IMG/VR virus record: IMGVR_UViG_3300037419_002054
Span: 35,122-99,121 of that record
Length of the DNA: 64,000 nt
From: a virus
Taxonomy: Duplodnaviria > Heunggongvirae > Uroviricota > Caudoviricetes
Strand: one strand, 5' to 3'
In this document: piece by piece, positions 14,265 to 61,305 of the stretch
How the letters are laid out: each line of letters starts with the position of its first letter
Position numbering within the stretch: position 1 is the stretch's first letter
The notes under the pieces: generated by a model
What the model was told of the DNA's origin: nothing
Seen by the model: the letters and a program-made list of their open reading frames with translations, nothing else
Database searches by the model: none
Translations under genes and position numbers: made by a program

Positions 14265-14265
14265 G

Positions 14266-15664: not shown

Positions 15665-15692
15665 GTCCCTACGCTGTCGGCTCAGCCGGTGA

Positions 15693-16085: not shown

Positions 16086-16116
16086 CGTTCTCTCGCGTGG
16101 AGTAGTTGGGTTGAAC

Positions 16117-16138
16117 AGGTGGGGGCCGGAGCCCCCAC
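16117..16138 (-). terminator. hairpin/attenuator immediately after MCP gene
   Basis: GGTGGGGGC-CGGA-GCCCCCACC. Weak U tract. Confidence 0.45.
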
Positions 16139-16164
16139 CCCTCAGTTCAGCCGGCCGCGGCGGG

Positions 16165-17310
16165 TTACGCCGCGACGCGCAGCTTGCGGATCGCCTCGGC
16201 CATCAGCACCTGCGAGCCCACCCGCTTGCGGGCGAGGAAGCGCACGGCGTTGCTGGTCGCCTGGGTGTACGGGTCGCGCAGGATCGAGATCGCGAGGCGG
16301 TCCACGATCGTCAGCGCCTTCCGCATGTCCCCGAAGATCACCGGGGTCGAGTTGGCGGCGATGTCGGGCATGTCGATCACCTCGACGTAGGGCTTGCCGT
16401 TGATCGTCGCCGGCTCCCCGCTCGCCAGCCCCGGCTGCCAGATGTACACGCCGTTGGCGTCCTTCAGCAGGCGGATCTGCTTCAGGGTCTGGCGGTTCAG
16501 GAAGTACATCCCGTTGCGGGCGTAGAACTCCTTCACGTCGTACGCCAGCGAGATCACGCTGTCCGCGGTGATCTTGGTCGCGTCGCCGGTCTTGGTCTCG
16601 GCGATGCTCTGGTGGCCCAGCGCGCCCTGGGGCTTGCCGACGCCGTTGCCCAGCACGAAGGCCGCGCCCTCGGTCACGCCGAACTGCTCACCGAACTCCG
16701 TGCGCAGCTCCGACTCCAGGTCGAAGGCGCTGTCCTCCAGGTCCTGGTTCGAGATGTCGACCATCGCCACCATCTCGTGCGTCGGGATCTCCTCCAGCCC
16801 GTAGCGCAGGCCGTCGGTCTCCGTCCGCTGCCCGGTCTCGGTCGCCCAGCGGGCGGCGAAGGTGCCGGTCTTCCGGGGCTGCTGGATCGAACGCTGCGTG
16901 GTCGAGCGCACGCGGGCGTACTGCCGGAGGGGCGACCACTCCACCACCTCCTTCAGGATCTCCTTCACGTACTCGGTGGGGGCGAGGTAGCCGCCGGTGG
17001 TGTCGTCCGACACCGTCAGCATCTTCCGCTCCTCGGGGCTCACCTCGCCCTTGCGGGCGTACGCGAACAGCGCGTTCTTGGCCTCCGACGCCTTGGGGGC
17101 CTCGGGGGCGCCGCCCTCCCCGCCCAGCTTGTTGGCGGCGCGGGCCATCTTGGTCTCCAGCTCGCCCAGCCGCTCGTTGATCCGGTCGACGGCGGTCTTG
17201 GTCTCGCTCGAGACGCTGCCGGCCGACTTCAGCTCGCCGTCCTGGCGCTCCAGGGCCTGCCGGAACTCGGCGAAGGCGGTCTGGAACTCGGTCTTCAGCT
17301 CCTGGTCCAT
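16165..17310 (-). CDS. major capsid protein, HK97 fold, with N-terminal delta/scaffold-like coiled coil
   Basis: 381 aa with an N-terminal coiled-coil region and a C-terminal region typical of the Phage_capsid (HK97) family. Follows the prohead protease. Confidence 0.85.
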   Translation of the reverse strand: MDQELKTEFQTAFAEFRQALERQDGELKSAGSVSSETKTAVDRINERLGELETKMARAANKLGGEGGAPEAPKASEAKNALFAYARKGEVSPEERKMLTVSDDTTGGYLAPTEYVKEILKEVVEWSPLRQYARVRSTTQRSIQQPRKTGTFAARWATETGQRTETDGLRYGLEEIPTHEMVAMVDISNQDLEDSAFDLESELRTEFGEQFGVTEGAAFVLGNGVGKPQGALGHQSIAETKTGDATKITADSVISLAYDVKEFYARNGMYFLNRQTLKQIRLLKDANGVYIWQPGLASGEPATINGKPYVEVIDMPDIAANSTPVIFGDMRKALTIVDRLAISILRDPYTQATSNAVRFLARKRVGSQVLMAEAIRKLRVAA

Positions 17311-18449
17311 CAGGTCGTAGCTCCCTTGTTGTTGCGATCGGTGAGGAACTGGCGGAAGTCACGGAGCGTCGAATGGACCAGCGCCGGGTCGACGTTCTTC
17401 TGCTCCTCGGGGGCGGCTCCGCCGTTCTCACCGCCCTCGGGGTTCGGGGTGCCCTCGGGAGCCTCGGGGGGCGTGCCCCCCTTGCCGCCCTCGGGCGCGT
17501 TCGGGTCTTCGTTCTCCTCGTCCGGCTTCGCGGCCGGGCGAGCGTTGGTCAGCAGCGTGCTGAGCGCGTCGATCGCGGTCTGCACGCGGGTCAGGCTCTG
17601 CGCCGAGAGGACGCGCCCGACCTTCAGCTCGTCGGCCTCGATGTAGGCGCCGATCGTCAGCTTGCGCAGGAGGCGCTCGAACTTGTTGTCCGTGGGCTCG
17701 TTCACGTTCATCCCGGACTTGGCGAAGTAGCGGCTCAGGTGCCCGGTGAGGCGGTGCTTCACCGCCTCCGGGAGATCCGACGCCTTGAGCTCCGCGGCCG
17801 CAGCCGAGAGCGCGGCGGGGACCACCACCGGCGAGCCGTTGACGATGTCGGCGATGGCGAACTTCCGCTCCTCGCCGCTGACGTACAGGAAGCCCTTCGT
17901 CAGCTTCTCCCGGTCGTTGCCGGCCCACTCGAGGACCCGTGCCTGCGCGGCGGCGGCGTCCCACGAAACGTCCTTCGCGACCGGGAGGTCGCTGAAAGCG
18001 CTGAGGGCCTGCTTGACGGAAGTCACCTGCGCGATGGGAAGCATGGGGAAGGTGACCACGGACACCTCCCACAGGCGCACCTCGAGGAGCTGGCGGACTT
18101 CCTGCGCCCAGCTCACGGTGATCGTGTCGTAGCCGATCGAGAGGCCCTTGATGGCCCCCTGCTTGAGCAGGGAGTACGCCTCGCGTCCCTTCGTCACGTC
18201 GAGGTTGAGCTTCCCGCGGATGATCAGTCCCTGCGGGCTGTCCTCCAGCTTGCCGAGACCGATCGGGTGATACGGGTCGTGCTGCCACAGGATCACGACC
18301 TCGGGGTTCTGCTGGATGGTCCGGGTGAACGCACCCGGCATCACCATGTCACCGCCGAGATCCTCGATCCCGTAGACGGAGGCGAAGCCGACGAAGTCGC
18401 CGGTCTCCTGCAGCTCCTTGACTTCGAACTGGAATGCCTTCTTTTCCAC
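17310..18449 (-). CDS. prohead protease (HK97/U35-type) with C-terminal scaffold-like extension
   Basis: N-terminus MEKKAFQFEVKELQETGDFVGFASVYGIEDLGGDMVMPGAF matches the HK97 protease family signature. 379 aa (longer than about 200 aa) suggests a fused scaffold. TGATG overlap with the MCP gene. Confidence 0.75.
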   Translation of the reverse strand: MEKKAFQFEVKELQETGDFVGFASVYGIEDLGGDMVMPGAFTRTIQQNPEVVILWQHDPYHPIGLGKLEDSPQGLIIRGKLNLDVTKGREAYSLLKQGAIKGLSIGYDTITVSWAQEVRQLLEVRLWEVSVVTFPMLPIAQVTSVKQALSAFSDLPVAKDVSWDAAAAQARVLEWAGNDREKLTKGFLYVSGEERKFAIADIVNGSPVVVPAALSAAAAELKASDLPEAVKHRLTGHLSRYFAKSGMNVNEPTDNKFERLLRKLTIGAYIEADELKVGRVLSAQSLTRVQTAIDALSTLLTNARPAAKPDEENEDPNAPEGGKGGTPPEAPEGTPNPEGGENGGAAPEEQKNVDPALVHSTLRDFRQFLTDRNNKGATT

Positions 18450-21960: not shown

Positions 21961-21989
21961 TTGACCAGTAGGGGAGGGGGATGTATATT
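21961..21989 (+). promoter_or_regulatory. sigma70-type promoter, plus-oriented copy of the repeated promoter family
   Basis: GAAACTG-TTGACC-17nt-TATATT-tctccacggttaagcgc. Drives 22032..23275. Confidence 0.6.
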
Positions 21990-23650: not shown

Positions 23651-23943
23651 TTCGAGTTGCTGTCCTTCGAGAGGGTATACAGGCCGTCACGGAAGACGGT
23701 CCAGAGGAACCTCCAGCCGACGAAGCTCAGCAGGAGGATGCCGTAGCTGATTTGCCAGACGAACGGCGTCGTGAGGCCGGCGATCCCCCAGGTGAGGAGG
23801 GTCCAGCCGGACAGGAGGGCGCATACGAGGAAGATCTCGCTCAGGTGCGATCCCACCCACGCAGGGGTAGCACGTACCCGAGCGAGGATGAGATCGCACC
23901 GCTTACGCAGACGGGCGCGGCGGGTGAGGGCGACCTCCATCAA
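23647..23943 (-). CDS. small membrane protein (98 aa, 2-3 predicted TM helices)
   Basis: Hydrophobic stretches LSEIFLVCALLSGWTLLTWGIAGL and ISYGILLLSFVGWRFLW. TGATG overlap with the TerL stop. Confidence 0.5.
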   Translation of the reverse strand: MMEVALTRRARLRKRCDLILARVRATPAWVGSHLSEIFLVCALLSGWTLLTWGIAGLTTPFVWQISYGILLLSFVGWRFLWTVFRDGLYTLSKDSNSK

Positions 23944-25472
23944 ACCCTCCCGATCCGGATGCGGGTCTCCGGGATATCGGCGAACGCCAGCATGATGGAC
24001 TCCGCCCGGTCCGGGCTCTTGACGCCGCGCTTCTTCATAGTATCCTTGTCCTCAATCACGATCTGCCCGCGGGAGTTGTGCTCGTACTTGATGGCCGCGA
24101 GCTGCGCCTTCGCGACGTCCGCCCCCTTGAAGTTGAGCCCAATCAGGTCTCCCTGTTCGAACCTCTCCCGGAGGCCCCAAAACAGCTCGGCCTTCAGGTT
24201 CTTGTACTTCTCCTTGTTCTTCGGGCTCTTCTTGGTGACCCCCGCGCCGACGTTCACCGGGATGATCCTGTAACCCTCGTCTTTCAGGTGCATCGCCATG
24301 TAGTGGCCGATGCCGACGGAGTCCACCATCCCCTTCTCGACGTTGTCCCGGAACGGAGCGAGCGCCGCGACGACCTTGCCGCGGGGGTCCGGGTCCTGCC
24401 ACGCGTGCTGCTCGAGGATGAGCGGACCCTTCCGGATCGTGAGCACGGTCTCGTCCTCTCCCGGGCCGGCCACGTCCAGCCCGAAGCGGATGCCGTCCGC
24501 AAGGTAGTCGGTCTTGCGCTTGGCCGAGGCGTTCTTCCCGTCGCCGGCCTCGTCGGCGTCGATCTCGAACTCGTCTTCGTTCCGGAGGATCCAGTCATCC
24601 AGCGTAGTGCGGGCGGCGTCCTCCAGCCATGCGAGCGAGATCAGCGAGTCCTCGGACTGGTCCGGGAACTGCCCGAGCACCTTCGAGCGGAACAGCGGGC
24701 TGTCCCAGCCCCACTCCAGGTAGCGTTCCTTCACCCACCGGCGGGTCACGAGGTACGGCCGGATGTTGTCGTCCAGCTCGTCCTCGCTCATCGAGAGGAG
24801 GTCATCCAGCGAGACGCCGGCGAGGTTCGGGGTGTCGAACGCGCTGATCGTCATCGGGTTGTACCCGATACGCTTGCCGGTATAGATCTCGTAGAACGGA
24901 CCCGTGGGCTCGATCGGGTTGCCGATCGCGAGGATGCGCACGTCACCGCCGGCTCGGATACCGTCGATGGCGTCCCACACCTCCGGACGCACGCCGGGGG
25001 CCTCGTCGAGGATGATCAGGATGCGGCCGTGCCAACCCTGGAACCGTACGCCCTTGTCCGTGGAGAGCCCCTGGGCGTAGTTCTTTGGCCCCATCTTGAG
25101 CTCGGTCAGGTTAGGCAGCGGATACAGCCCAGGGATGCGGCACTGCTGGAGGGACGCGTGGATCTCCCCCCAAAGCAGCTTCTCCACCTGCGTCCAGGTG
25201 GGGGCCGTCGTCACCACGACTCCGTCCGGGAAGCGGCTCACCCACCAGAGGGCGGCCATGGAGGCGGTCTTGGTCTTGCCGGAGGCGTGGCACGCCTTTA
25301 CTGCCGTGCTCTTGTTCGTTGCGACGGACCGCAGGATCTGCTGCTGGAGGCCGTACAGGTCTTCGCCGAAGAAGACCTTGGCGAAGTGCGCGGGGTCGCG
25401 GAGAGCCACGGCCATCCCGTACTGCATGGCCTCGGCTTCCGTCTTGAAGGTCTTGCCGTCGATCTCGTACAT
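23940..25472 (-). CDS. terminase large subunit
   Basis: 510 aa with Walker A-like ACHASGKT, ILDEA (Walker B) and a C-terminal nuclease region. Terminase_6-like. Confidence 0.9.
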   Translation of the reverse strand: MYEIDGKTFKTEAEAMQYGMAVALRDPAHFAKVFFGEDLYGLQQQILRSVATNKSTAVKACHASGKTKTASMAALWWVSRFPDGVVVTTAPTWTQVEKLLWGEIHASLQQCRIPGLYPLPNLTELKMGPKNYAQGLSTDKGVRFQGWHGRILIILDEAPGVRPEVWDAIDGIRAGGDVRILAIGNPIEPTGPFYEIYTGKRIGYNPMTISAFDTPNLAGVSLDDLLSMSEDELDDNIRPYLVTRRWVKERYLEWGWDSPLFRSKVLGQFPDQSEDSLISLAWLEDAARTTLDDWILRNEDEFEIDADEAGDGKNASAKRKTDYLADGIRFGLDVAGPGEDETVLTIRKGPLILEQHAWQDPDPRGKVVAALAPFRDNVEKGMVDSVGIGHYMAMHLKDEGYRIIPVNVGAGVTKKSPKNKEKYKNLKAELFWGLRERFEQGDLIGLNFKGADVAKAQLAAIKYEHNSRGQIVIEDKDTMKKRGVKSPDRAESIMLAFADIPETRIRIGRV

Positions 25473-29834: not shown

Positions 29835-29863
29835 TTGACTACCCCGTGGAGGACGTTTATATT
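29835..29863 (+). promoter_or_regulatory. sigma70-type promoter, plus-oriented family copy
   Basis: GAAAGTG-TTGACT-17nt-TATATT-tctccacggttgagc. Drives 29906..32589. Confidence 0.6.
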
Positions 29864-40990: not shown

Positions 40991-41013
40991 TAACCTTCCC
41001 TCCAGAAAGTGTT

Positions 41014-41042
41014 GACCACTCCCTACGTTTGTGTGATATTCC
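41014..41042 (+). promoter_or_regulatory. sigma70-type promoter, plus-oriented family copy
   Basis: GAAAGTG-TTGACC-17nt-GATATT-ccgctaaggttgagagagcgcaccc. Drives 41084..41693. Confidence 0.55.
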
Positions 41043-47041: not shown

Positions 47042-47551
47042 TCAGAAGGAGGTGAAGAAGACGCGCCAGCCGGAGACCTTCTTCGCGCGCTTCCGGCGGG
47101 GGTTCGGGTTTTTGTCCCGGGCGTAGGCGGTCACGGTTCCGTGGCGGCCGCCGATGAAGACGTGGATATGGCAGTCCGCGAGGCAGTGCTCGTGCGGGGA
47201 GTCCTTCCGGCCGATGGTGACCGACATGCTGAGGTCCCCGCGGGGCAGACGCTCCACGTAAGCGTTCTTCACGAAGTAGCGGTCCGCGTACTCGTCCCCG
47301 TAGCGCGAGCGGGCGAAGTTGGCGAGAACCCACTCCTGCGCCTTGATCTGGCTGGGAGTCACCTCCTCCGCGCGACGCTTGGGCTCCCGGCGCGGGATCT
47401 TGTGCCCGCAGTTCCGGCACTCCCACACGGGAACGAGGCCGGTACGGTCCTCGTTAAGGTCCAGCTCGCGGCCCAGGATCGCTCCGCCGTCCGGGCAGCA
47501 GCGGGGGCAGGCGGCGATCTTGTAGTCCTTGCGGTAGCCGAGGTCAGCCAT
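47042..47551 (-). CDS. hypothetical protein with zinc ribbon (169 aa)
   Basis: ATG 47549-47551, 40 nt downstream of the cassette promoter at 47598-47626. Sequence MADLGYRKDYKIAACPRCC... Confidence 0.5.
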   Translation of the reverse strand: MADLGYRKDYKIAACPRCCPDGGAILGRELDLNEDRTGLVPVWECRNCGHKIPRREPKRRAEEVTPSQIKAQEWVLANFARSRYGDEYADRYFVKNAYVERLPRGDLSMSVTIGRKDSPHEHCLADCHIHVFIGGRHGTVTAYARDKNPNPRRKRAKKVSGWRVFFTSF

Positions 47552-47597
47552 TGGAGTCTCCGGGGGGTGCGGCGTGCGCTCTCTGAACCTTGGGAGA

Positions 47598-47626
47598 ATA
47601 ATACACGAATCCCCTCCCGGCGTCAA
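47598..47626 (-). promoter_or_regulatory. cassette promoter (minus) embedded in a hairpin; terminator-promoter module 47575-47650
   Basis: Minus strand TTGACG-17-TATTAT. Arms GAATCCCCTCC/GGAGGGGATTC (47607-47646) flank the -35. Leader CTCCCAAGGTTCAGAGAGCGCAC. Confidence 0.65.
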
Positions 47627-47668
47627 CAACTTCCGAGAGGGGATTCTTTCACTGCCCGTCGGGCGGAC

Positions 47669-47995
47669 CTACTCGCCGCTCATCCGGTGGTCGATGCACC
47701 AGCGGACGGTCCGGTGCTGGGTGGGAACACGACGGGTGCACCCCCGGACGAGCTGCCCGGGCTGCAGCCGCTGGGATACCTCGGCCCGCGGCACCCAGTA
47801 GAAGACGCGACGGCGGCCCAGGGACTGCAGCTTCACTTCCGCCTGCTGGATCTCCACCACCCGGTAGTGCGCGGTCCGGGAGGGAGGCCGCTGGTGTACC
47901 TGCGCTCCCGAGGAGGTGGCGAAGGAGAGGGCGGCGAGGAGCGCGGTCACCATCGCGGCGGCACGGCTCGGGTACTTCCGGGCGAAGTTCAGCAT
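47669..47995 (-). CDS. small secreted protein (108 aa, N-terminal signal peptide)
   Basis: MVTALLAALSFATSSGAQV is signal-like. AGGAGAT SD. Confidence 0.45.
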   Translation of the reverse strand: MLNFARKYPSRAAAMVTALLAALSFATSSGAQVHQRPPSRTAHYRVVEIQQAEVKLQSLGRRRVFYWVPRAEVSQRLQPGQLVRGCTRRVPTQHRTVRWCIDHRMSGE

Positions 47996-48023
47996 CTTCC
48001 GATCTCCTGTAGATGAAGGGGGC

Positions 48024-48052
48024 GGGTGCGGCCGGCTTCTCCAGCCGCACCC
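48024..48052 (-). terminator. terminator-like hairpin
   Basis: GGGTGCGGC-11nt-GCCGCACCC. Confidence 0.4.
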
Positions 48053-48061
48053 CGGGTGGTC

Positions 48062-48418
48062 CTACTCCTCTTCGGACTGACCGCGGACCCACCCACAGTG
48101 CGGGCAGGGCTCGCCGTGCTCCACGTACTCGTAGGGGTAGGAACCGCCGCACTTCTCGCAGATGGTTTCGTCCTCCTCCGGCACGTCCGAGGTCTCCACC
48201 AGCCCCAGGCTCGCCGCCACCTCGAACCCGCGCGCCGTGGGCTTGTACTGCTCCTCCGTCTCCTCGGCGAGGCCCAGCTCGATCAGCCGGCGGAACGTCC
48301 TCGGGGCTCCGAGCGCGTGCGCCACCGTCTTCTCCACTCCGCCCTCGAACCCGCAGAGGTCGCGAAGGACCCGCTCCTGCGTCTCGGTGAGCTCCGGGAT
48401 ACCGCTCGTCTCGGTCAT
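48062..48418 (-). CDS. zinc-ribbon protein (118 aa)
   Basis: CEKCGGSYPYEYVEHGEPCPHCGW. Downstream of the cassette promoter at 48467-48495. Confidence 0.5.
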   Translation of the reverse strand: MTETSGIPELTETQERVLRDLCGFEGGVEKTVAHALGAPRTFRRLIELGLAEETEEQYKPTARGFEVAASLGLVETSDVPEEDETICEKCGGSYPYEYVEHGEPCPHCGWVRGQSEEE

Positions 48419-48466
48419 CCTGCCTCCTCATGAAAGGGGTTGGACTGCGTCCGACCTACGTGGAGA

Positions 48467-48495
48467 ATAATACACGAATCCCCTCCCGGAGTCAA
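48467..48495 (-). promoter_or_regulatory. cassette promoter (minus) with hairpin over -35
   Basis: TTGACT-17-TATTAT; arms 48477-48487 / 48505-48513. Confidence 0.6.
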
Positions 48496-48526
48496 CAACT
48501 TCCGAGAGGGGATTTCATCGATGCGG

Positions 48527-48712
48527 TCACTTCGTAGGTCCGCCCTTGTACTTGCCGAGGTTCTCCTGATGTTGACGTCCCCGCTCGTGCGATCCGCGGG
48601 CAAGGGCGTTGGTGCTGATCCGAACGTAGCAGATCCGGCACGTTTGGTGCCGCGGGCCGTTTGGGGTGTAGAGCGGCCGAGGGAGCCCCGGCCGGCGGTC
48701 TTCCTCGCCCAT
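48527..48712 (-). CDS. small basic protein (61 aa)
   Basis: AGGAGG SD; CRICYVRIS. Confidence 0.4.
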   Translation of the reverse strand: MGEEDRRPGLPRPLYTPNGPRHQTCRICYVRISTNALARGSHERGRQHQENLGKYKGGPTK

Positions 48713-48715
48713 AGG

Positions 48716-48907
48716 TCAGTCCTCCTGCAGCCACCACTCCGGGACGAGCGCCATGGTGAGCCCGAAGGCCACCTCCTTCTTCCCGTCCTTGTCCCCGATC
48801 AGCATCCCGCGGGAGCCGTTCGGGATGCGGTCGATGACGACGTCGGCGTCGTCGAGGACCGTGAGCTGGCCCCAGGGGCTGTTGAGCTTCACGTAGCGGG
48901 CCGCCAT
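48716..48907 (-). CDS. hypothetical protein (63 aa)
   Basis: ORF. Confidence 0.4.
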   Translation of the reverse strand: MAARYVKLNSPWGQLTVLDDADVVIDRIPNGSRGMLIGDKDGKKEVAFGLTMALVPEWWLQED

Positions 48908-48908
48908 C

Positions 48909-49049
48909 TCAGCCTCCGGTGAGAACGTACGTGAGGAACCAGACGCCCATCACGAGCCCCGCGAAGCGGTAGCTGCCGGTCTTGCCGAGCACGGCCACCG
49001 CGGCGTAGATCGCGAAGAGCAGGGGGAGCCAGAAGCGGAGCGCGTTCAT
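48909..49049 (-). CDS. small membrane protein (46 aa)
   Basis: MNALRFWLPLLFAIYAAVAVLGKTGSYRFAGLVMGVWFLTYVLTGG. GGAGGT SD. Confidence 0.35.
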   Translation of the reverse strand: MNALRFWLPLLFAIYAAVAVLGKTGSYRFAGLVMGVWFLTYVLTGG

Positions 49050-49561
49050 TCTACCTCCGGAGCCGAGGGTAAGGACTGTCGCAGCCCGGCGTTGAGCCGG
49101 AGCAGCACGTAGTGGAAGAGCGTAACCGAGAACAGGGCGAAGAGGTTCGCCTCGTCCTCCTGCCGCTGGAACGCCCGCACCTCGTCCGGCGCAAGGCGCG
49201 CGGGATTGAGCGCGTATGCGGAGTTCGGGGTGTGCGGGAGCAGGTGATGCCCGAGCTCGTGGAGGATCGCGTGGGCCTGCTCTACGAGGTCCAGGTCCGT
49301 GTCCAGCCAGATCACGGACAGCGTGGCCGTCTTGATGAGGCAGGCCGGTAGACTCGGCGCGGGCCGCCGCCGGATCTCCAGCCCGTGGGCCGAGGCGGCC
49401 AGCTCCGCCCAAAGGAGGAGGGCGGAGTCCACGGAGACGCAGCGGGCCATGTCCGGGATGCCGTTCCAGACCACCACGCTGGCGGTGTCAACGGCACGGA
49501 GGAGGATCGCGCCCGTGCGATCCTCCTCTACCGGGAGGCTACTCCTCGTCATCGTCTTCAA
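49046..49561 (-). CDS. ImmA/IrrE-family (COG2856) HExxH zinc metallopeptidase domain protein (171 aa)
   Basis: Motif AHAILHELGHHLLPH is the diagnostic HExxH block of the ImmA/IrrE family. Confidence 0.55.
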   Translation of the reverse strand: MKTMTRSSLPVEEDRTGAILLRAVDTASVVVWNGIPDMARCVSVDSALLLWAELAASAHGLEIRRRPAPSLPACLIKTATLSVIWLDTDLDLVEQAHAILHELGHHLLPHTPNSAYALNPARLAPDEVRAFQRQEDEANLFALFSVTLFHYVLLRLNAGLRQSLPSAPEVE

Positions 49562-49682
49562 CGGAGTCGATGTTGAGCACTCCGTCCCGGACGTACGCCT
49601 CAGCCTCCGGGTAGCCGTCCACGATCACCTCCATCTCGTCCGGGAGGCCGGCGAGGGCCTCCCGCAGCTGACGCACGTTCAT
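49539..49682 (-). CDS. small acidic protein (47 aa)
   Basis: Not in the ORF track. Verified translation MNVRQLREALAGLPDEMEVIVDGYPEAEAYVRDGVLNIDSVEDDDEE. Confidence 0.35.
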   Translation of the reverse strand: MNVRQLREALAGLPDEMEVIVDGYPEAEAYVRDGVLNIDSVEDDDEE

Positions 49683-49694
49683 AGTTCGCCCCTT

Positions 49695-49844
49695 TCAGGC
49701 GTAGTAGGTGTCGCGTGGATCCAGCCCGGGCTCCGGCCGGTATTCGGGGATGGCGACGACCTCGCCGCGAAGGATCTCGGGGCACTGCTCGCAGGAGCCG
49801 GCCGCGTCCAGCCGCAGGGAGCAGAGGGGGCAATGCGTCGGCAT
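49695..49844 (-). CDS. zinc-ribbon microprotein (49 aa)
   Basis: MPTHCPLCSLRLDAAGSCEQCPE... GGGAGG SD. Confidence 0.4.
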   Translation of the reverse strand: MPTHCPLCSLRLDAAGSCEQCPEILRGEVVAIPEYRPEPGLDPRDTYYA

Positions 49845-49848
49845 CTCT

Positions 49849-50088
49849 TTACGCCTCCCTCTCGACGCCCAGCGTCTCCAGGGTCGGGAGCCCGCAGTCC
49901 GGGTGCTCCGCGAGGTACTGCTCATACGCGTCCGTGGGGCAGTAGCCCCAGCCGAGGTTGCCGGCCGTGGCGTTCCACGCCTGCAGGTTCAACGCATTCA
50001 CCTCGTCCTGGGTGGTGAGCGCGCGTGCCTCGTAGAGGTTGCCGCCGTCTCCGTCCGAGAGGACGTACAGCTTGGGCTTCTGTTCCAT
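49849..50088 (-). CDS. hypothetical protein (79 aa)
   Basis: ATG 50086-50088, downstream of the cassette promoter at 50135-50163. Confidence 0.45.
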   Translation of the reverse strand: MEQKPKLYVLSDGDGGNLYEARALTTQDEVNALNLQAWNATAGNLGWGYCPTDAYEQYLAEHPDCGLPTLETLGVEREA

Positions 50089-50134
50089 CGGGATCTCCCG
50101 CGGTAGGGGGTAAAGGGCCACTCAACCTGTGAGG

Positions 50135-50163
50135 ATAATACACGGAGCCTCCTCCGGAGTCAA
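50135..50163 (-). promoter_or_regulatory. cassette promoter (minus) with covarying hairpin
   Basis: TTGACT-17-TATTAT. Arms GAGCCTCCTCCGG / CCGGAGGAGGC (50145-50181) have different sequence but the same structure. Confidence 0.6.
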
Positions 50164-50195
50164 CATCTTCCGGAGGAGGCCGGGCCTTATGGATC

Positions 50196-50687
50196 TCAGC
50201 TGACGTAGGGCTTCAGCTCCGGGTGCTGCCGGAGGCAGTCCGGGCCAATCGGAAGACCGCCGACGTATCCGGCGTCATTCACGTCCGCGCTTCCCGGAAC
50301 CGCGGCGTAGGCGCCACCGTCCACCACCTCCAGGTAGTGGCGGGGGTTCTTCACCTCCCGGCCGCAGACCACGCAGGGGTCCTTCTCGCAGGGCTCCCGG
50401 TAGGGCTTTGTCGACTCCGGGATGCGCACGCGGGGCTCGGGGATGAGGAGAGCCGCCGGGACGGCGCAGGTGAACTTCTTGAACCGGACCAGCGCCAGCT
50501 GCACGCCGTCCCCGCAGATGGCGCGGAGCCCGGCCGCGCGCTCCTGCTCAGACGGCGTGGAGTCCCGGAGGCCGAGAACGACGCCGGCCGTTCCCACCAC
50601 GGGCGCGTCCTGGATCTCGCGCGCCTGCAGGTCCGCGTACGCCGCGGGGGTCATGAAGATCTTGGCGCCCTTGGTAATCTCCGTCAT
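50196..50687 (-). CDS. hypothetical protein (163 aa)
   Basis: Downstream of the cassette promoter at 50732-50760. Confidence 0.5.
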   Translation of the reverse strand: MTEITKGAKIFMTPAAYADLQAREIQDAPVVGTAGVVLGLRDSTPSEQERAAGLRAICGDGVQLALVRFKKFTCAVPAALLIPEPRVRIPESTKPYREPCEKDPCVVCGREVKNPRHYLEVVDGGAYAAVPGSADVNDAGYVGGLPIGPDCLRQHPELKPYVS

Positions 50688-50731
50688 CTCTCCGCTCTCC
50701 GTTTGGGGGTGGACCGCTCAACCATGGGAGA

Positions 50732-50760
50732 ATAATACACGAATCCTCTCCGATGGTCAA
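50732..50760 (-). promoter_or_regulatory. cassette promoter (minus) with covarying hairpin
   Basis: TTGACC-17-TATTAT. Arms GAATCCTCTCCG / CGGAGAGGATTTC (50741-50782). Confidence 0.6.
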
Positions 50761-50803
50761 CACTTTCTGCGGAGAGGATTTCGTTGACGGGTGACGGAGC
50801 AGG

Positions 50804-51370
50804 TCAGGCCGGGTAGACTAGCACCACGCCGTCGCTCCAGTTCTCGAGGTGGAAGCCTTCCGGGGTGGCCCACGGGTGAACGAGCCAGGGCGTGCCGTCG
50901 TCCCAGCAGTAGTCGATCTGCGTGCCGAAGGGGAGGAAGGTGAGGCCGCCTACATCGATGCCGATACCCCACAGCGCGCGGCGGCCGGCGCGCTCGTTCA
51001 CCTCCGGGGTCAGCACCTTCACGTTCTCCGGACCCGCGCCCACGGTCCCGAGGATCACCCGCGCGGCCTCGGCCAGCTTCTCCGCCACGCGCTCCGCGGT
51101 CTCCGGCTCCTTCGCCATCTGCCGGGCGTGCTCCCGGAGGGCGGAGATGATCCAGTCCCGGGAGACGTCGGTGCCGTCCGGGTTCTCGATGAGGGGGACC
51201 TTCCGGAGGGCTTCCGGGTTAGCGGTCCCGTAGTGCCACGCGATCCAGCCCTTCGGGAGCCCGTGCTTGGTGAGCCCGGCGAACTCCTCGTCGGTCATCC
51301 CGCCGTTGGCGAAGCGGCCGACCGTCCCGTTGATCCGGCGGCCCAGGTGGTGCGCGATGAGTCCCTGCAT
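50804..51370 (-). CDS. hypothetical protein (188 aa)
   Basis: ORF. Confidence 0.5.
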   Translation of the reverse strand: MQGLIAHHLGRRINGTVGRFANGGMTDEEFAGLTKHGLPKGWIAWHYGTANPEALRKVPLIENPDGTDVSRDWIISALREHARQMAKEPETAERVAEKLAEAARVILGTVGAGPENVKVLTPEVNERAGRRALWGIGIDVGGLTFLPFGTQIDYCWDDGTPWLVHPWATPEGFHLENWSDGVVLVYPA

Positions 51371-51694: not shown

Positions 51695-51723
51695 AATAAT
51701 ACACGAATCCCCTCCCGGCGTCA
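51695..51723 (-). promoter_or_regulatory. cassette promoter (minus) with hairpin
   Basis: TTGACG-17-TATTAT. Arms 51704-51714 / 51734-51743. Conserved leader CTCCCAAGGTTGAGAGAGCGCACCC. Confidence 0.65.
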
Positions 51724-51862
51724 ACACTTTCCGAGAGGGGATTTCACTGACCGCTATCGCTTCCGTTCCGGCGGCCCCCACGTGAACCCGATGAACCACC
51801 GCCAGAGGACGAAGCCGACCCCCGGCCGGCCCTCCACGTCGTGTATCCCGAACCGGGGCATT

Positions 51863-53082: not shown

Positions 53083-53111
53083 ATAATACACGGCACCCAA
53101 CCCCGCGTCAA
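53083..53111 (-). promoter_or_regulatory. cassette promoter (minus) preceded by a separate terminator hairpin
   Basis: TTGACG-17-TATTAT. Upstream (minus) GGGGAGGGGCC...GGCTCCTCCCC hairpin at 53117-53143, then UUUCUG. Confidence 0.6.
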
Positions 53112-53171: not shown

Positions 53172-53864
53172 TCAGCGGTGCGTGGTATCCCTCGAGGCCG
53201 CCACGGTGCCGTCGGCCGGCGCGCCGAAGTCGATGGCCTCCTCCTTCCCCGTCTCGAAGGAGTGCAGCGTTCGGTCGTCGAGCACCTGCGTACGGATCAT
53301 CTGCAGCGCGGCCTCGCCGGTGACGAACCCGTCGCCCTTGCGCACCCGGAGGACGTTGCTGGGGAAGTACATCTTCACGAAGAACGGGCGGATCACGCCG
53401 TCGTTCGTCCACGCGTCGTACACGGCCACCCGCTGCGCCAGCTCGTCCTGCTTGTTCTTGAACTCGGTACGGCCGGCGCTGATCGCGTCGAAGAGCCGGT
53501 CCTGGGCCTTGGCGAGCTGCGACAGGTCCGGGTACGCCTCGCGCATCGCGGAGATCAGCTGGCCGTTGCTCTGGAAGCCGCCGGTGCCGTACCGCCCCTG
53601 CACCGCGTCGCGCAACACGGTGTCGAGCTGGGCGCTCTGGACCCGGACGATGCCGGCCTGCTCCTTCACCGTCTTCACGTAGGTCGAGAGCGCGTTCTGG
53701 TTGGCCGTGTACTGCGCCGCCAGCTGCGTCTCCTGCCGGATTCCCTCCCGCTTGACGCTTCCGACGTAGCCGAAGGCGCCCACCAGGAGGACGACGACCG
53801 CCGCGAGGGCGATCCCGCCGATCGCGAGGCAGCCGAGGCCCGCGGCCTTGCCCGTGTTGCTCAT
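53172..53864 (-). CDS. LemA-family-like membrane protein (about 230 aa)
   Basis: ATG 53862-53864 (MSNTGKAAGLGCLAIGGIALAAVVVLLVGAF): single N-terminal TM followed by a Gln/Ala-rich soluble domain, typical of LemA. Confidence 0.45.
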   Translation of the reverse strand: MSNTGKAAGLGCLAIGGIALAAVVVLLVGAFGYVGSVKREGIRQETQLAAQYTANQNALSTYVKTVKEQAGIVRVQSAQLDTVLRDAVQGRYGTGGFQSNGQLISAMREAYPDLSQLAKAQDRLFDAISAGRTEFKNKQDELAQRVAVYDAWTNDGVIRPFFVKMYFPSNVLRVRKGDGFVTGEAALQMIRTQVLDDRTLHSFETGKEEAIDFGAPADGTVAASRDTTHR

Positions 53865-53895
53865 TCTGTTGATCCCCGAGGGATGGAGGGTTTGC

Positions 53896-55323
53896 CTACC
53901 GCAGCCCGCGGTAGGGACGGAACGCCGGGACGGAGGAGTACCGCCGCCGGTTGGGCTCACCGAAGAACGCCGCGCCGCCCCAGGCGACGAGCGAGCCCGC
54001 GAGAGCAATGAGGAAGATCCAGACCTTCGCCTTCGTGGACGGCTGGATCTCTCCCTTCAGGTACAGGTAGCCCCCGCCGTGGGAGTCTCCGTTCATACTG
54101 ACCCGGGCGAACCGCGTGGCGGGGTTCTCGAGGCCGAAGACGACGGACTCGATCACGCCGTTCCCGTGGAGGGAGGTCACGGCCTGCCCGCGGATCTGTC
54201 CGCGTACGGAACCCACCACGGCCTCCGGGGTGAGCGGAGTACCCGCAAGCCGGCGGTTGAGCACCGTCGTCATCAACTCGTTGCCGGAGGGCATCCCGGT
54301 CACGGCTCGGCCCCACGCGGCGGTCTTCCCGTCCAGCGTACCCACGGCCACGATGATGGTGTTCTTCGCCGCCGTGTTCCGGTCGAACGCGGTCACGTCC
54401 TGCCAGCGGGCCTTCAGTGCCATGATGTAGGCGTCCGCGTTCGGGACCTTCTTCGCGTCCACGAGGACGAGGAGGAGATCCCCGCGGAGCTCGTTGCCGA
54501 GTGCTGCGTTCAGCTTGCCCACCGCGTCCTGCCACGCCCGCGCGTTGGGCGGCACGAACCCGGCGAACACCACCTTGTCCGAGAGGTAGTGCGAGTAGAT
54601 GTTGCTCGGGACCGCGGGCAGCAGCTGCCGGGAGAGGAACGAGTTCACGTCCGAACTGCGCTCCTGTAGGATCGTGCCGTCCGAGGCGAGGATGTAGTTC
54701 TTGTAAGTCGCTCGCTTCACGACGGGTCCGGGGTTCCCGGAGAGGACCCGCTCGCGCGCCTGGGACCAGAACGCGGGGTAGCCCGTACCGGCGTTCGAGA
54801 TCACGCTGGAGGGGAGATCCTCGCCGCGCTCCGGCTCCCACCTCTCGCTGTGCGGGTTGGCCGGGAAGCGGCCGGAGTCGATCAGGTACTCGCCCAGGGT
54901 CGTCTGCACGTAGTACGCCCACTCGGTCCGGACGTACGGGCAGTGATGGTACTCGGTCGTGTAGTACGTCGTGCACGAGCGGGTCTTCCCGCTCCCCGAG
55001 CAGGAGGTGTGCGAAACGAGGTACGGATCGCAGTTGTAGCAGTGCTGACAGCTGCCGTCCCGGGTGCAGTTCGTCGGCACCGCCCGGACGCCGGACTCCC
55101 ACCCGTTGTGGAACTCGTTGAACGTCAGCTTGGCGTCCACCGCCGTCTTCCAGCCCAGGCCCACGCTCAACGGGACGATGAGGAGGGAGATGGCAAGGCC
55201 GTAGCCGAGCAGCTCCGCGCGGGAGATCTGCAGGCCGTGCTCGGGGTGCGTGTCGAGGTACCACTTGAGCGCGGCGCCGGCCCCGAAGGCGGCGACGAGG
55301 GACCAGAATCCGATGACCCACAT
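53896..55323 (-). CDS. large membrane protein (about 475 aa) with N- and C-terminal TM helices and a Cys-rich ectodomain segment; possible TPM-like partner of LemA
   Basis: ATG 55321-55323 (MWVIGFWSLVAAFGAGAAL). Cys cluster NCTRDGSCQHCYNCDPY...CSGSGKTRSCTTYYTTEYHHCPY. C-terminal TM VWIFLIALAGSLVAWGGAAFFG. Confidence 0.45.
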   Translation of the reverse strand: MWVIGFWSLVAAFGAGAALKWYLDTHPEHGLQISRAELLGYGLAISLLIVPLSVGLGWKTAVDAKLTFNEFHNGWESGVRAVPTNCTRDGSCQHCYNCDPYLVSHTSCSGSGKTRSCTTYYTTEYHHCPYVRTEWAYYVQTTLGEYLIDSGRFPANPHSERWEPERGEDLPSSVISNAGTGYPAFWSQARERVLSGNPGPVVKRATYKNYILASDGTILQERSSDVNSFLSRQLLPAVPSNIYSHYLSDKVVFAGFVPPNARAWQDAVGKLNAALGNELRGDLLLVLVDAKKVPNADAYIMALKARWQDVTAFDRNTAAKNTIIVAVGTLDGKTAAWGRAVTGMPSGNELMTTVLNRRLAGTPLTPEAVVGSVRGQIRGQAVTSLHGNGVIESVVFGLENPATRFARVSMNGDSHGGGYLYLKGEIQPSTKAKVWIFLIALAGSLVAWGGAAFFGEPNRRRYSSVPAFRPYRGLR

Positions 55324-55384
55324 AAGGCTGTGTCCGGGGGAAAGGGATGGAGGGAACCGGCGGCTAAGTGCTCCGCCGGTCCCG

Positions 55385-55795
55385 TCACTGTTCGTCCTTC
55401 GCGGCCGCGATCCGCTCAACGGTGAGGAGGAGGTCAAGGAGGGCCTGCAGCTCCGGTTGCCACGCCCAGTCCTCCAGCGCCGGCTCCATCGCCTCCAGGA
55501 GCTCGTTTAGCGCCTCGCGGACCTTCTCCTGCATGATCTCTCCGGCCTGCTCCAGCGCGTAGCGGATGAGCGCGGCGCACGCCTCGTCCCGCATCCTCTC
55601 GCAGAACTCGAAGGCGTCGCCGCCCGGCGCGAAGCCCGAGGGCCGGTAGGTGAGGACCGCCCACTGCTTCTCCACCACACGGTCCGCCATCCGCCGCGCC
55701 CGGCCGCTGAGCGTGGAGGCGTGCCGGGTGAGGAACGGCCGGTACTCCCGCGGGAGCCGGGCGCGGAGTACCGGGGAGCAGAACGGGTCCAGCAT
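55385..55795 (-). CDS. hypothetical protein (136 aa)
   Basis: ATG 55793-55795 (MLDPFCSPVL). Confidence 0.4.
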   Translation of the reverse strand: MLDPFCSPVLRARLPREYRPFLTRHASTLSGRARRMADRVVEKQWAVLTYRPSGFAPGGDAFEFCERMRDEACAALIRYALEQAGEIMQEKVREALNELLEAMEPALEDWAWQPELQALLDLLLTVERIAAAKDEQ

Positions 55796-56005: not shown

Positions 56006-56034
56006 ATAGTACACGAATCCCCCGGACTGGTCAA
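56006..56034 (-). promoter_or_regulatory. cassette promoter (minus) with covarying hairpin
   Basis: TTGACC-17-TACTAT. Arms GAATCCCCCGG / CGGGGGATTC (56016-56055). Leader CTCCACGGTTGAGAGAGCGCACCC. Confidence 0.6.
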
Positions 56035-56075: not shown

Positions 56076-56900
56076 CTACACCCTGATGGTGGGCGGTCCT
56101 CCCGCGGTGAGCCGCTCGATCCGGTTGGCGACCTCCTTCAGGTGCAGGGACAGCTCGGTGATCCGTCCGCCGCGGATGAAGGTGAACTTCCGCTCCCGGC
56201 AGAACGCCTCCACCTTGCTCACCGTCTCGCCACCCAGCCCCACCAGCGCCTCCAGCAGCTCGACGTTCGCCCGTACCTCGGACTCGCCGACGGTGGGCGG
56301 GAAGGTCTGCCCGTGTAGCTTCTCCATCGCCTCCACCTTCCGCTTGGAGACGTTGCCGCCCTCGCCGGCCTCGGCCAGCTTGGAGAGCCCGACGATCGAG
56401 ACGTCGACCTCGTAGCCCAGTTCCTGGGCGAGCGCGCGCTTGGCTTCCTTGGAGCCGCCGCGCTTCTTCCACACGTCGGTGAACTGCTGGATGAACGTAC
56501 GCAGCTGCTCGTTGCTGATTCCGGCGCGGGTACGCACGGAGGCGGTCGCGGTCACGGTCGGTTCCTCCTCGAGGGGAAGGGTCTGCTGGGGGACGGCGGG
56601 CTCGCCCACGATCAGGCGGCCGCAGTGGTAGTGCTCCCCGCGCTCGCGGATGCTCAGGAGGAGCTGGTAGAGCGACGGGTTCATCCGGCCACCGTTGTAC
56701 CCGGTCAGCCAGTTGCCGATGGCGCTGACGGAGACGCCCATACGCTTCGCGAGGCGCTCCTTGGCGACCGCTGGGCTGCGCTCGCCGCCGAACCGCTTGA
56801 GGACCACGATCAGCGTGCGAACGCGCTCCTCGAACGCAGCGCGGCCCTCCGGCGAGAGCGTCTGCAGGTCCTTGCTGCTTCCGTACTTGATCTCGGGCAT
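56076..56900 (-). CDS. helix-turn-helix DNA-binding protein (274 aa, two HTH-like segments); candidate transcriptional regulator
   Basis: LAKRMGVSVSAIGNWLTG and LAQELGYEVDVSIVGLSK resemble XRE-type HTH segments. Confidence 0.45.
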   Translation of the reverse strand: MPEIKYGSSKDLQTLSPEGRAAFEERVRTLIVVLKRFGGERSPAVAKERLAKRMGVSVSAIGNWLTGYNGGRMNPSLYQLLLSIRERGEHYHCGRLIVGEPAVPQQTLPLEEEPTVTATASVRTRAGISNEQLRTFIQQFTDVWKKRGGSKEAKRALAQELGYEVDVSIVGLSKLAEAGEGGNVSKRKVEAMEKLHGQTFPPTVGESEVRANVELLEALVGLGGETVSKVEAFCRERKFTFIRGGRITELSLHLKEVANRIERLTAGGPPTIRV

Positions 56901-58874: not shown

Positions 58875-58903
58875 ATAATACACGCATCCCCTCCATTGGT
58901 CAA
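58875..58903 (-). promoter_or_regulatory. cassette promoter (minus) with covarying hairpin
   Basis: TTGACC-17-TATTAT. Perfect 11-bp arms GCATCCCCTCC / GGAGGGGATGC (58884-58926). Confidence 0.65.
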
Positions 58904-59879: not shown

Positions 59880-59908
59880 AATATACAACGATCCCCCGCC
59901 GTGGTCAA
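59880..59908 (-). promoter_or_regulatory. cassette promoter (minus) with covarying hairpin
   Basis: TTGACC-17-TATATT. Arms GATCCCCCGCCG / CGACGGGGGATC (59891-59928). Confidence 0.6.
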
Positions 59909-60511: not shown

Positions 60512-60760
60512 TCACGAGCCCTCGACGGGGTCGAGCTCGATGAGGACGCAGGGGAACTCGGGGTCGCTTTCGTCGACCCGGGCCCACCCGACCCGAGAGC
60601 CCTCCCACGTCACGGGTACAGGCTCGGCCTCCTTGAACGCCGAGACGTACACCGCGCGGGGGAGGACGGAGCCGCCGAGGGGCAGCTCCTCCGGGATCAG
60701 GGACGTCAGCGTGCGGGGCAGCTGACTCGGTTGTTCCTGCAGCCGGACTTCGTTGTTCAT
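60512..60760 (-). CDS. hypothetical protein (82 aa)
   Basis: ORF. Confidence 0.4.
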   Translation of the reverse strand: MNNEVRLQEQPSQLPRTLTSLIPEELPLGGSVLPRAVYVSAFKEAEPVPVTWEGSRVGWARVDESDPEFPCVLIELDPVEGS

Positions 60761-61305
60761 CCGCCCTCGATGGTCTCCCGCAGGTTCTGCAGCGTGATCG
60801 GGCCGCCGTCCTTGCCCGTGACCTCCGTCTTGTCGATGAAGATCCCGAGGTGCCGGCCCAGCTCGGTCAGGGCGCCCTTCTTGTCATGCAGCTTGAACTT
60901 CAGCGTCGTCTTCTCCATCTCGCCGACGACGATCGTGGTCTGCTCCAGGCCGGCGACGCACGCGGCGTCCTCCTCCGAAAGCTGCTCGCTGTCCCGGAGG
61001 ATGATCCCGTCCGGACCCCAGCGGGCGAAGCTCGTCATCTTGGAGAAGCCCAGCTTCGCCAGCTCCTGCACCACCCGGTCCGCCGTAACCTGCGTACGGG
61101 CGCTGCGGGCCTCCATCGCGGCGGCCACGGCCGCCTTGACCTTCGGGTTCTTCAGCAGCTTGTGTGCCTCGACCCCGGCCACGTTGTTCGTCTTCGCCTT
61201 GTATCCCGCCCGGAGGTACGCCTGAGTGGCGTTCAGGTCGACGAGGTACTCCTCGACGAACCTCCGCTGCTTGGGTGTCAGGTCGTACTGCTCCAAGTCC
61301 AGCAT
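60757..61305 (-). CDS. terminase small subunit-like protein (Terminase_2 family, 182 aa)
   Basis: N-terminus LTPKQRRFVEEYLVDLNATQAYLRAGYKAKTNNVAGVEAHKLL is the hallmark Terminase_2 HTH signature. Confidence 0.65.
   Translation of the reverse strand: MLDLEQYDLTPKQRRFVEEYLVDLNATQAYLRAGYKAKTNNVAGVEAHKLLKNPKVKAAVAAAMEARSARTQVTADRVVQELAKLGFSKMTSFARWGPDGIILRDSEQLSEEDAACVAGLEQTTIVVGEMEKTTLKFKLHDKKGALTELGRHLGIFIDKTEVTGKDGGPITLQNLRETIEGG

What the first reader, a model, noticed from the sequence alone, without database searches (positions are those of the whole stretch)
49046..49561. Orphan ImmA/IrrE-type HExxH metallopeptidase without an adjacent XRE repressor
The AHAILHELGHHLLPH block is the diagnostic motif of COG2856 proteases. 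ImmA cleaves the ImmR repressor in ICEBs1, and IrrE/PprI cleaves DdrO in Deinococcus. These normally sit next to their HTH substrate gene. Here the neighbours are tiny acidic, zinc-ribbon and membrane microproteins, and the only clear HTH protein is 7 kb away (56076-56900). In a probable Deinococcus-Thermus-group phage, an IrrE-like protease could target the host DdrO-type damage-response repressor.
Basis: partly seen in the sequence, partly recalled or inferred. Interest (0 to 1): 0.6.

Follow-up and report, generated by a model that had tools for sequence, protein, structure and literature searches.

The report
Stand-alone ImmA/IrrE-family protease in a phage
A small gene in an uncultivated phage really does encode a zinc protease of the family that normally destroys repressor proteins, but it has no repressor gene next to it; such small proteases are common in phages, so this is a divergent member of a known kind, and its target and the phage's host are unknown.

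The parts
49046..49552 (-). Gene for a 168-aa minimal M78/COG2856 zinc metallopeptidase. An alternative TTG start at 49561 gives 171 aa.
49232..49276 (-). The AHAILHELGHHLLPH block, residues 93-107. It holds the zinc ligands H98 and H102, the catalytic E99 and the subfamily-invariant H107. HELGH is 49247-49261.
   Evidence: Sequence. H98, E99, H102 and H107 are invariant in the 40- and 32-sequence alignments.
49145..49159 (-). The EDEAN motif, residues 132-136. E132 is the predicted third zinc ligand on the 'glutamate helix'.
   Evidence: E132 and A135 are invariant and Q131 is at least 90% conserved. The motif aligns with the IEAQAD motif of CapP 7t5t.
49539..49682 (-). Upstream 47-aa acidic protein. 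Its last 14 nt overlap the start of the protease gene, which suggests translational coupling.
   Evidence: ORF, gene call, sequence. Weak DUF6225 match at E 1.2e-4, 22.5 bits against a cut-off of 26.5. No HTH match.
48909..49049 (-). Downstream 46-aa hydrophobic (membrane) microprotein. Its ATG overlaps the protease stop codon (ATGA).
   Evidence: Gene call, sequence. No family match.
50135..50163 (-). Sigma-70-type promoter (TTGACT-17-TATTAT) at the head of the seven-gene operon that contains the protease.
   Evidence: The region 47500-51000 holds 4 such sites against 0.1 expected.
48467..48495 (-). The next copy of the same promoter unit, inside a hairpin. It marks the end of the protease operon and the start of the next.
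   Evidence: Hairpin dG is -28.5 kcal/mol, z -4.7.
48527..50088 (-). The whole operon, seven tightly packed genes of 79, 49, 47, 168 (protease), 46, 63 and 61 aa. Apart from the protease they are all orphans or small zinc-finger-like proteins.
   Evidence: Gene calls. Pfam and PHROG scans found no HTH and no known function.
56076..56900 (-). A 274-aa protein with a sub-threshold HTH motif at residues 46-68. It lies about 6.5 kb away in another operon and is only a candidate substrate.
   Evidence: Pfam HTH_3 E 0.003, 18 bits against a cut-off of 23. PHROG 4779 E 0.005. hhalign against XRE domains aligns only 20 columns, probability 12.5%. The best PDB matches are homeodomain HTHs at E 0.45.

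Best explanation
Window 49046-49552 (minus strand) encodes a catalytically intact, single-domain zinc metallopeptidase of the M78/COG2856 family, comparable in size with ImmA as I recall it. It sits in an early-type operon of tiny genes in a roughly 99-kb uncultivated tailed phage. It has no sensor domain and no cognate repressor gene beside it. It therefore most likely works as a constitutively active, site-specific protease made on infection. It would cut a DNA-binding regulator supplied in trans: a host repressor, a repressor of a resident prophage or mobile element, or a distant phage regulator. That would make it a portable anti-repressor. Shown: the gene, the family, the fold, the intact active-site residues, the operon layout and the absence of an adjacent HTH. 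Inferred: that it is active, that its substrate is a transcription regulator, and that it acts in trans.
For: Family and fold:
- Pfam PF06114 E 2.4e-4, PHROG 87 E 6e-10, PADLOC capP E 6.6e-5.
- The exhaustive HMMER search found 52 relatives at E<1e-3. Of the 39 scanned, 33 hit PF06114, as did the phage protein itself (34 of 40 members).
- H98, E99, H102, H107, E132 and A135 are invariant.
- The profile's best PDB sequence matches are CapP, then IrrE, with the IrrE orthologue PprI fourth.

No sensor domain:
- The protein is 168 aa, and only capP profile positions 27-108 of 242 are covered.

No partner:
- No HTH family appears in the ten nearest genes or in 50 further ORFs.
- The partner gene conserved next to bacterial relatives has no homologue in the window.

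Operon context:
- Promoters lie at 50135-50163 and 48467-48495.

Precedent for action in trans:
- The Listeria monocin protease MpaR cleaves the CI-like repressors of its own element and of a separate prophage (PMC6872733, read).
Against: - No substrate has been identified.
- The Pfam score is just below the curated cut-off.
- The phage's lifestyle is unknown. Only 64 kb of a roughly 99-kb contig was visible, so a cognate repressor or an integrase could lie outside the window.
- Small divergent HTH proteins can escape Pfam.
- Known ImmA/IrrE/CapP proteases need an activating signal, so a constitutive enzyme is an assumption.
- Cleaving host CapH-like repressors would switch defences on, which would hurt the phage.
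Confidence: 0.5

Rival explanations
1. Internal timing switch. The protease cleaves a regulator encoded by the phage itself, for example the weak-HTH 274-aa protein at 56076-56900, or the 118-aa zinc-ribbon protein at 48062-48418 that opens the next operon. This would move the infection from one transcription stage to the next.
For: The 56076-56900 protein has sub-threshold HTH matches. The early region is organised by at least 12 near-identical promoter units, which could share one regulator. Six of the eight hairpin-bearing units carry AATCCCC...GGGGATT-like arms.
Against: The HTH matches are all below threshold and are not XRE-like over the full domain. The two genes are in different operons about 6.5 kb apart. 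The promoter hairpin arms vary with compensating changes and are absent from the divergent plus-strand promoters. That pattern fits terminators better than operators.
Confidence: 0.15
2. Captured counter-defence enzyme. The phage holds only the protease domain of a bacterial three-gene cassette (membrane/HTH-like partner, then N-terminal domain fused to M78, then a roughly 360-aa protein). It uses that domain to cleave the cassette's partner or another host immune component.
For: The only relatives are bacterial, at most about 45% identical. In 45 of 52 of them the M78 domain sits at the C-terminal end, behind an N-terminal extension of at least about 100 aa (45 N-termini kept by the filter). 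A partner gene is conserved and overlaps the protease gene by 4 nt in three independent loci (L003, L005, L007). The three-gene order partner, M78, roughly 360 aa is seen in L007 and L008, which appear to be the same cassette in related Thermoanaerobaculia-type contigs (partners 82% identical). The phage has neither the partner nor the N-terminal domain. Orphan antitoxin-like counter-defence genes are known in phages (PMC11825919, abstract seen).
Against: Only the M78 proteins of the cassette match PADLOC (the capP model). Its partner and its roughly 360-aa third gene match no PADLOC model, and no defence function is shown. The host is unknown, so co-occurrence cannot be tested. Identity to the bacterial proteins is low.
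Confidence: 0.15
3. One reading: an IrrE-like protease of a Deinococcus-Thermus phage that cleaves the host DdrO damage-response repressor.
For: It belongs to the same peptidase family as IrrE/PprI. GC of 67% is compatible with that host group.
Against: It lacks the part of IrrE beyond the peptidase domain. It is no nearer to IrrE than to CapP or PrpR. No Thermus or Deinococcus phage is among the best matches of the MuF, portal, capsid or RNR proteins. The named carriers of the subfamily are Gemmatimonadota and Acidobacteriota MAGs. GC of 67% fits many phyla.
Confidence: 0.05
4. The HExxH is incidental, or the protein is an inactive pseudo-protease or a different gluzincin (SprT/Wss1-like or ArdC-like).
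Confidence: 0.04

Closest known systems
ImmA of ICEBs1 (Bacillus subtilis) and the ImmA-like or MpaR-type anti-repressor proteases of temperate phages
   Same: It is a single-domain M78/DUF955 peptidase of about 170 aa (the ImmA size is from my memory). It has HExxH plus a downstream Glu ligand. It is carried by a mobile element or phage. MpaR shows that such enzymes can act in trans on repressors of other elements (PMC6872733).
   Different: ImmA/MpaR genes lie immediately next to their CI/XRE-type repressor in a lysogeny switch. Here there is no adjacent HTH, no integrase in the window, and the gene lies in an operon of tiny orphan genes. Sequence similarity is only at profile level.
CapP, the protease of the CapH/CapP regulator of CBASS and other defence operons (PDB 7t5t)
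   Different: Only the N-terminal peptidase part of the capP profile (positions 27-108 of 242) is covered. The C-terminal half is missing, and no CapH-like HTH gene is adjacent.
IrrE/PprI of Deinococcus (PDB 3dte, 8slm/8sln)
   Different: IrrE/PprI proteins are longer multi-domain proteins that respond to a damage signal and cleave DdrO (abstracts of PMC12828697 and PMC10904395). The phage protein is the bare core, and there is no evidence of a Deinococcus-Thermus host.
Small stand-alone 'IrrE N-terminal-like' proteins of other phages (BFVD entries A0A8S5TZB1, A0A8S5V3K0, A0A6J5M2Q0; Corynebacterium phage Dina peptidase; Synechococcus phage S-SCSM1 'regulator of DNA damage repair')
   Same: They have the same fold and a comparable size (83-181 aa) and are encoded by phages. 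PHROG 87 groups such proteins.
   Different: Sequence identity is about 20% or less. There is no tblastn match in 50,697 phage genomes. The subfamily signature here (ACL[IV]xT...HELxHxxLxHxPN[ST]xYxLDP...RQExEA) is shared only with bacterial proteins.

Membership tests
Peptidase_M78 / COG2856 (ImmA/IrrE family) | HExxH zinc-binding and catalytic motif on the active-site helix | tested here: met
   H98-E-L-G-H102 is invariant in 40 homologues.
Peptidase_M78 / COG2856 (ImmA/IrrE family) | Third zinc ligand Glu in an ExxA[ND]xFA-type motif about 25-30 residues after HExxH | tested here: met
   E132-D-E-A-N-L-F-A, 30 residues after H102. E132 and A135 are invariant. The motif aligns with the CapP motif.
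Peptidase_M78 / COG2856 (ImmA/IrrE family) | Score at or above the Pfam PF06114 gathering threshold (22 bits) | tested here: inconclusive
   21.3 bits, E 2.4e-4, which is 0.7 bit short. At E<=0.001, 34 of the 40 alignment members hit the family (33 of 39 homologues plus the phage protein). Of the six homologues rescanned individually, four pass the cut-off (P0006, P0004, P0016, P0003) and two do not (P0002, P0020).
Peptidase_M78 / COG2856 (ImmA/IrrE family) | Fold: helix, three-stranded sheet, active-site helix, glutamate helix | tested here: met
Peptidase_M78 / COG2856 (ImmA/IrrE family) | Adjacent XRE/HTH repressor gene (or fused HTH) that is the substrate | tested here: not met
   No HTH family appears in the ten nearest genes or in 50 further ORFs. 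This is a typical feature of the family, not a defining one.
Peptidase_M78 / COG2856 (ImmA/IrrE family) | Zinc-dependent site-specific endopeptidase activity | not testable with these tools
   This needs biochemistry.
IrrE/PprI subfamily | Additional domains C-terminal to the peptidase core (damage sensing) | tested here: not met
   The protein is 168 aa in all. Only 8 residues follow the last helix of the model. Only positions 27-108 of the 242-position capP profile are covered.
IrrE/PprI subfamily | Deinococcus-Thermus setting with a DdrO substrate | tested here: inconclusive
   The host is unknown. No Deinococcus or Thermus signal appears. A DdrO homologue could not be searched for without a host genome.
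CapP/CapH regulator | CapP-length protease paired with a CapH HTH repressor upstream of a defence operon | tested here: not met
   The capP model match is partial. There is no HTH neighbour, and the setting is a phage early operon.
ImmA/ImmR-type lysogeny or ICE switch | Protease gene co-transcribed with, or next to, its repressor, with an integrase in the element | tested here: not met
   No repressor or integrase family was found in the ORFs scanned with Pfam or PHROGs. The structural-gene block at 334-18449 was not scanned, and about 35 kb of the contig was not visible.

The most novel reading that the evidence does not exclude
The phage has captured just the protease domain of an undescribed bacterial three-gene cassette. 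That cassette consists of a membrane-anchored HTH-like partner, an N-terminal-domain/M78 fusion, and a roughly 360-aa protein, and was seen in Thermoanaerobaculia-type contigs and related metagenome contigs. The phage would express the domain early, as an orphan enzyme, to cleave the cassette's partner and so disarm or pre-empt a host conflict system.
Probability: 0.12. Interest if true: 0.65.

Novelty: new member of a known kind. Interest (0 to 1): 0.3.

Why it matters
M78 proteases are the switch component of many repressor-controlled systems: ICE and prophage induction, the Deinococcus radiation response, and CapH/CapP control of immune operons. A phage enzyme of this family that travels without its repressor and without a sensor domain would be a ready-made tool for cutting someone else's repressor. 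Finding its substrate would show which host or prophage circuit this phage manipulates. As it stands, the gene is a well-supported annotation, not a new mechanism. Small stand-alone M78 proteins are frequent in phages, and their targets are mostly unknown. The value here lies in the subfamily definition and in the link to a conserved bacterial cassette.

Tried and rejected
- Close relatives: none found. There was no tblastn match in 50,697 phage genomes, and no megablast match for the 5-kb region. Nothing turned up in IMG/VR or in GTDB genomes. The word-index protein search found only the protein itself.
- Single-sequence AlphaFold gave an unusable model (pLDDT 40). It was replaced by the alignment-based model.
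I used a degenerate DNA pattern instead.
- Host assignment failed. The best phage matches of MuF, portal, capsid and RNR are scattered over unrelated hosts. There are no tRNAs.
- I tested whether the partner protein of the bacterial relatives is an XRE HTH. The best PDB match was the sigma-E region 4 HTH at E 0.93. There were no Pfam domains. The result is inconclusive.
- By eye, the 118-aa protein at 48062-48418 looked like a winged helix plus zinc ribbon. Neither Pfam nor the PDB search confirmed the winged helix.
- A column-wise covariation count on the promoter hairpins was weak because the register shifts between copies. Folding each copy separately was informative.
- The two other contigs that carry the gene are 100% identical to the window, so they give no information on selection.

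Full report
**1. The observation**

The minus strand carries an ORF at 49046-49561 (171 aa from a TTG). The probable start is the ATG at 49552. It gives the 168-aa product that an independent JGI gene call also has (P0001). Numbering below is for the 168-aa protein.

- The quoted block AHAILHELGHHLLPH is residues 93-107 (window 49232-49276); HELGH is 49247-49261.
- GC at codon positions 1/2/3 is 0.71/0.45/0.89, the signature of the other genes of this 67%-GC sequence.
- HExxH occurs only twice in all 543 six-frame ORFs of at least 30 aa.
- The longer signature HE[LIVM][GAS]H...E.EA[ND] occurs only here.

**2. Family**

- Pfam Peptidase_M78 (PF06114) matches at E 2.4e-4 and 21.3 bits, just under the curated 22 bits.
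- PHROG 87 'metallo-protease' matches at E 6.2e-10.
- PADLOC capP matches at E 6.6e-5.
- NCBIfam gives nothing.

There are no close relatives in 50,697 phage genomes, IMG/VR, GTDB species genomes or the word-indexed protein search. The exhaustive HMMER search of 1.84 billion cluster representatives found 52 relatives at E<1e-3. The best are 41-45% identical over residues 42-150.

Of the 40 aligned sequences, 34 match PF06114: 33 of the 39 homologues, plus the phage protein itself (best E 1e-8). H98, E99, H102, H107, E132 and A135 are invariant, and L87, L100, L105, Q131 and A139 are nearly so. E132 lies in EDEANLFA (49145-49159), 30 residues after H102. It aligns with the glutamate motif of CapP. 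This is the family's HExxH...E arrangement.

A profile of the subfamily finds CapP (7t5t, E 0.025) and IrrE (3dte, 0.19) as its two best PDB sequences. An IrrE orthologue (8slm, 0.5) comes fourth, after a snake venom metalloproteinase.

**3. Fold**

A single-sequence model was useless (pLDDT 40). With the 32-sequence alignment the model has mean pLDDT 83 and pTM 0.74, with residues 41-160 mostly above 90.

- Its order of elements is helix 41-55, three strands, active-site helix 89-104, and a long helix 122-160.
- ArdC (5.6), M32 carboxypeptidases, Wss1 and minigluzincins come lower.
- Foldseek gives the same mix with weak E-values.
- In BFVD the best matches are phage proteins named 'IrrE protein' or 'IrrE N-terminal-like domain-containing protein', mostly 83-181 aa.

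That test fails, so this is a genuine M78 peptidase.

**4. What it lacks**

The capP model is matched only over positions 27-108 of 242. The protein ends a few residues after the last helix. It is therefore the bare peptidase core. That is the size I recall for ImmA, and it lacks the further domains of IrrE/PprI and CapP. According to the abstracts of PMC10904395 and bioRxiv 10.64898/2026.05.16.725639, those proteases are stimulated by single-stranded DNA.

**5. Genomic setting**

The window is part of a tailed phage:

- MuF-like protein
- portal and large terminase
- major capsid
- small terminase
- class II ribonucleotide reductase, exonuclease and RNase H

The collection records a longest contig of 99,121 bases for the protease. 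No integrase or repressor family was found in the ORFs scanned. The structural-gene block at 334-18449 was not scanned.

The protease lies in a run of minus-strand operons. Each operon is headed by a near-identical promoter unit, TTGAC-17/18-TATTAT. Its own operon runs from promoter 50135-50163 to the next unit at 48467-48495. It holds seven genes of 79, 49, 47, 168, 46, 63 and 61 aa.

The protease start overlaps the end of the 47-aa acidic gene by 14 nt. Its stop overlaps the ATG of the 46-aa membrane microprotein. This suggests translational coupling on both sides.

None of the ten nearest small genes matches an HTH family. There is only a weak DUF6225 match and a weak U1-type zinc finger. 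A Pfam scan of 50 further ORFs also shows no HTH.

- HTH_3 at 18 bits against a cut-off of 23
- PHROG 4779 at E 0.005
- 20 aligned columns to XRE domains, probability 12.5%
- homeodomain HTHs at E 0.45

So 'orphan' is supported within the visible 64 kb, at Pfam sensitivity.

**6. Relatives and their context**

In 45 of the 52 relatives the M78 domain is at the C-terminal end, behind an N-terminal extension of at least about 100 aa. These extensions fall into several unrelated groups. Only two proteins have more than 90 residues after the domain. A degenerate DNA pattern for the signature found two GTDB genomes, a Longimicrobium MAG and a Thermoanaerobaculia MAG.

In three independent loci (L003, L005, L007) the protease gene is preceded by a homologous gene of about 200-230 aa, with a 4-nt overlap.

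- That partner has a hydrophobic N-terminal part.
- Its C-terminal part looks like an HTH, but this is not proven. The best PDB match is sigma-E region 4 at E 0.93. No Pfam domains were found.

In L007 and L008 (partners 82% identical, so probably one cassette in related genomes) the order is partner, M78 protein, then a 358-365-aa protein. In PADLOC only the M78 proteins match (capP). The partner and the third gene match nothing. Neither the partner nor any other neighbour has a homologue in the phage window.

**7. Host**

Nothing points to Deinococcus-Thermus. The best phage matches of the structural and replication proteins are scattered: Microbacterium and Arthrobacter, Marinomonas and Parageobacillus, Rhizobium, Microcystis and Haloarcula. 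No tRNA gene is present. GC of 67% fits many phyla. The host remains unknown.

**8. Mechanism**

Shown: an intact M78 active site, no sensor domain, no adjacent substrate gene, and expression from a strong consensus promoter together with tiny orphan genes typical of early host-takeover regions.

Inferred: it is a constitutively active site-specific protease whose substrate is supplied in trans. By analogy with every characterised family member (ImmA-ImmR, IrrE-DdrO, CapP-CapH, MpaR-CI), that substrate is most probably a DNA-binding regulator. MpaR of Listeria shows that such a protease can serve repressors of other elements (PMC6872733).

I put about 0.9 on the family and fold assignment and about 0.5 on the trans-acting anti-repressor mechanism. 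The rivals are:

- an internal timing switch acting on the phage's own weak-HTH protein (0.15)
- a captured counter-defence enzyme aimed at the bacterial cassette's partner (0.15)
- an incidental or non-M78 protein (0.04)

**9. Novelty and score**

M78 proteins are among the commonest phage accessory proteins (PHROG 87). Small stand-alone versions exist in many phages. This is therefore a new, sequence-divergent member of a known kind. The link to an undescribed bacterial cassette and the absence of any partner give it some follow-up value. Interest 0.3.

Noticed in passing
window minus strand 59880-59908, 58875-58903, 56006-56034, 53083-53111, 51696-51724, 50732-50760, 50135-50163, 48467-48495, 47598-47626; plus strand 21961-21989, 29835-29863, 41012-41039: There are twelve near-identical promoter units (GAAAGTG-TTGAC-N17/18-TATTAT-TCTCC...GGTTGAG). 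In eight of the nine minus-strand copies a strong hairpin (dG -20 to -30 kcal/mol, z -3.9 to -6.9) encloses the -35 hexamer and ends about 4 nt before the T-rich -10 region. The three plus-strand copies, which head divergent operons, have no hairpin. The units look like combined terminator-promoter cassettes. A palindromic operator (AATCCCC...GGGGATT in six of the eight) is the alternative.
   Followed up: partly
L007 1059-3570 (minus strand), L008 6001-8524; also L003 2523-4678 and L005 341-1971: Bacterial relatives of the protease sit in a conserved cassette. A partner of about 211 aa (hydrophobic N-terminus, HTH-like C-terminus) overlaps an M78-domain protein by 4 nt. In L007 and L008 a 358-365-aa protein follows. 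In PADLOC only the M78 proteins match (capP); the partner and the third gene match nothing. No Pfam family other than Peptidase_M78 matches. It may be an undescribed regulatory or conflict module.
   Followed up: partly
P0004, P0016 and other homologues: Many bacterial homologues carry long, varied N-terminal regions before the M78 domain. Some have a GGTGA-type motif, one hits Pfam Tubulin_2, one carries TPR repeats, and one appears to sit in a polyketide-synthase-like protein.
   Followed up: no
window 60757-61305 (minus strand) versus 23940-25472 (minus strand): A clear small-terminase gene (PHROG 51 E 9e-39; SF6-type TerS in the PDB at E 3e-9) lies next to the ribonucleotide reductase. That is about 35 kb from the large-terminase gene, an unusual separation.
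   Followed up: no
L001 ends, which correspond to window 47599 and 51713: An independent assembly (SRR35145553) of the same phage is 100% identical to the window. It breaks exactly at two copies of the promoter repeat, which shows that these repeats fragment short-read assemblies.
   Followed up: yes
window 48062-48418 (minus strand): The first gene of the next operon encodes a 118-aa protein with a C-terminal CxxC...CxxC zinc ribbon. Its N-terminal half looks by eye like a winged helix (LTETQERVLRDL...FRRLIELGLAEE). Neither Pfam nor the PDB sequence search confirmed the winged helix.
   Followed up: partly
window 53172-55437 (minus strand): Two larger membrane-associated proteins sit in the middle of the early-type region. 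One matches PHROG 1383 'virion structural protein' at E 5e-26, with a weak Rz-like spanin match. The other is a 513-aa protein matching PHROG 2087. One of the 50 ORFs scanned also has an SPFH/Band_7 domain (E 2e-23), but which ORF was not determined.
   Followed up: no
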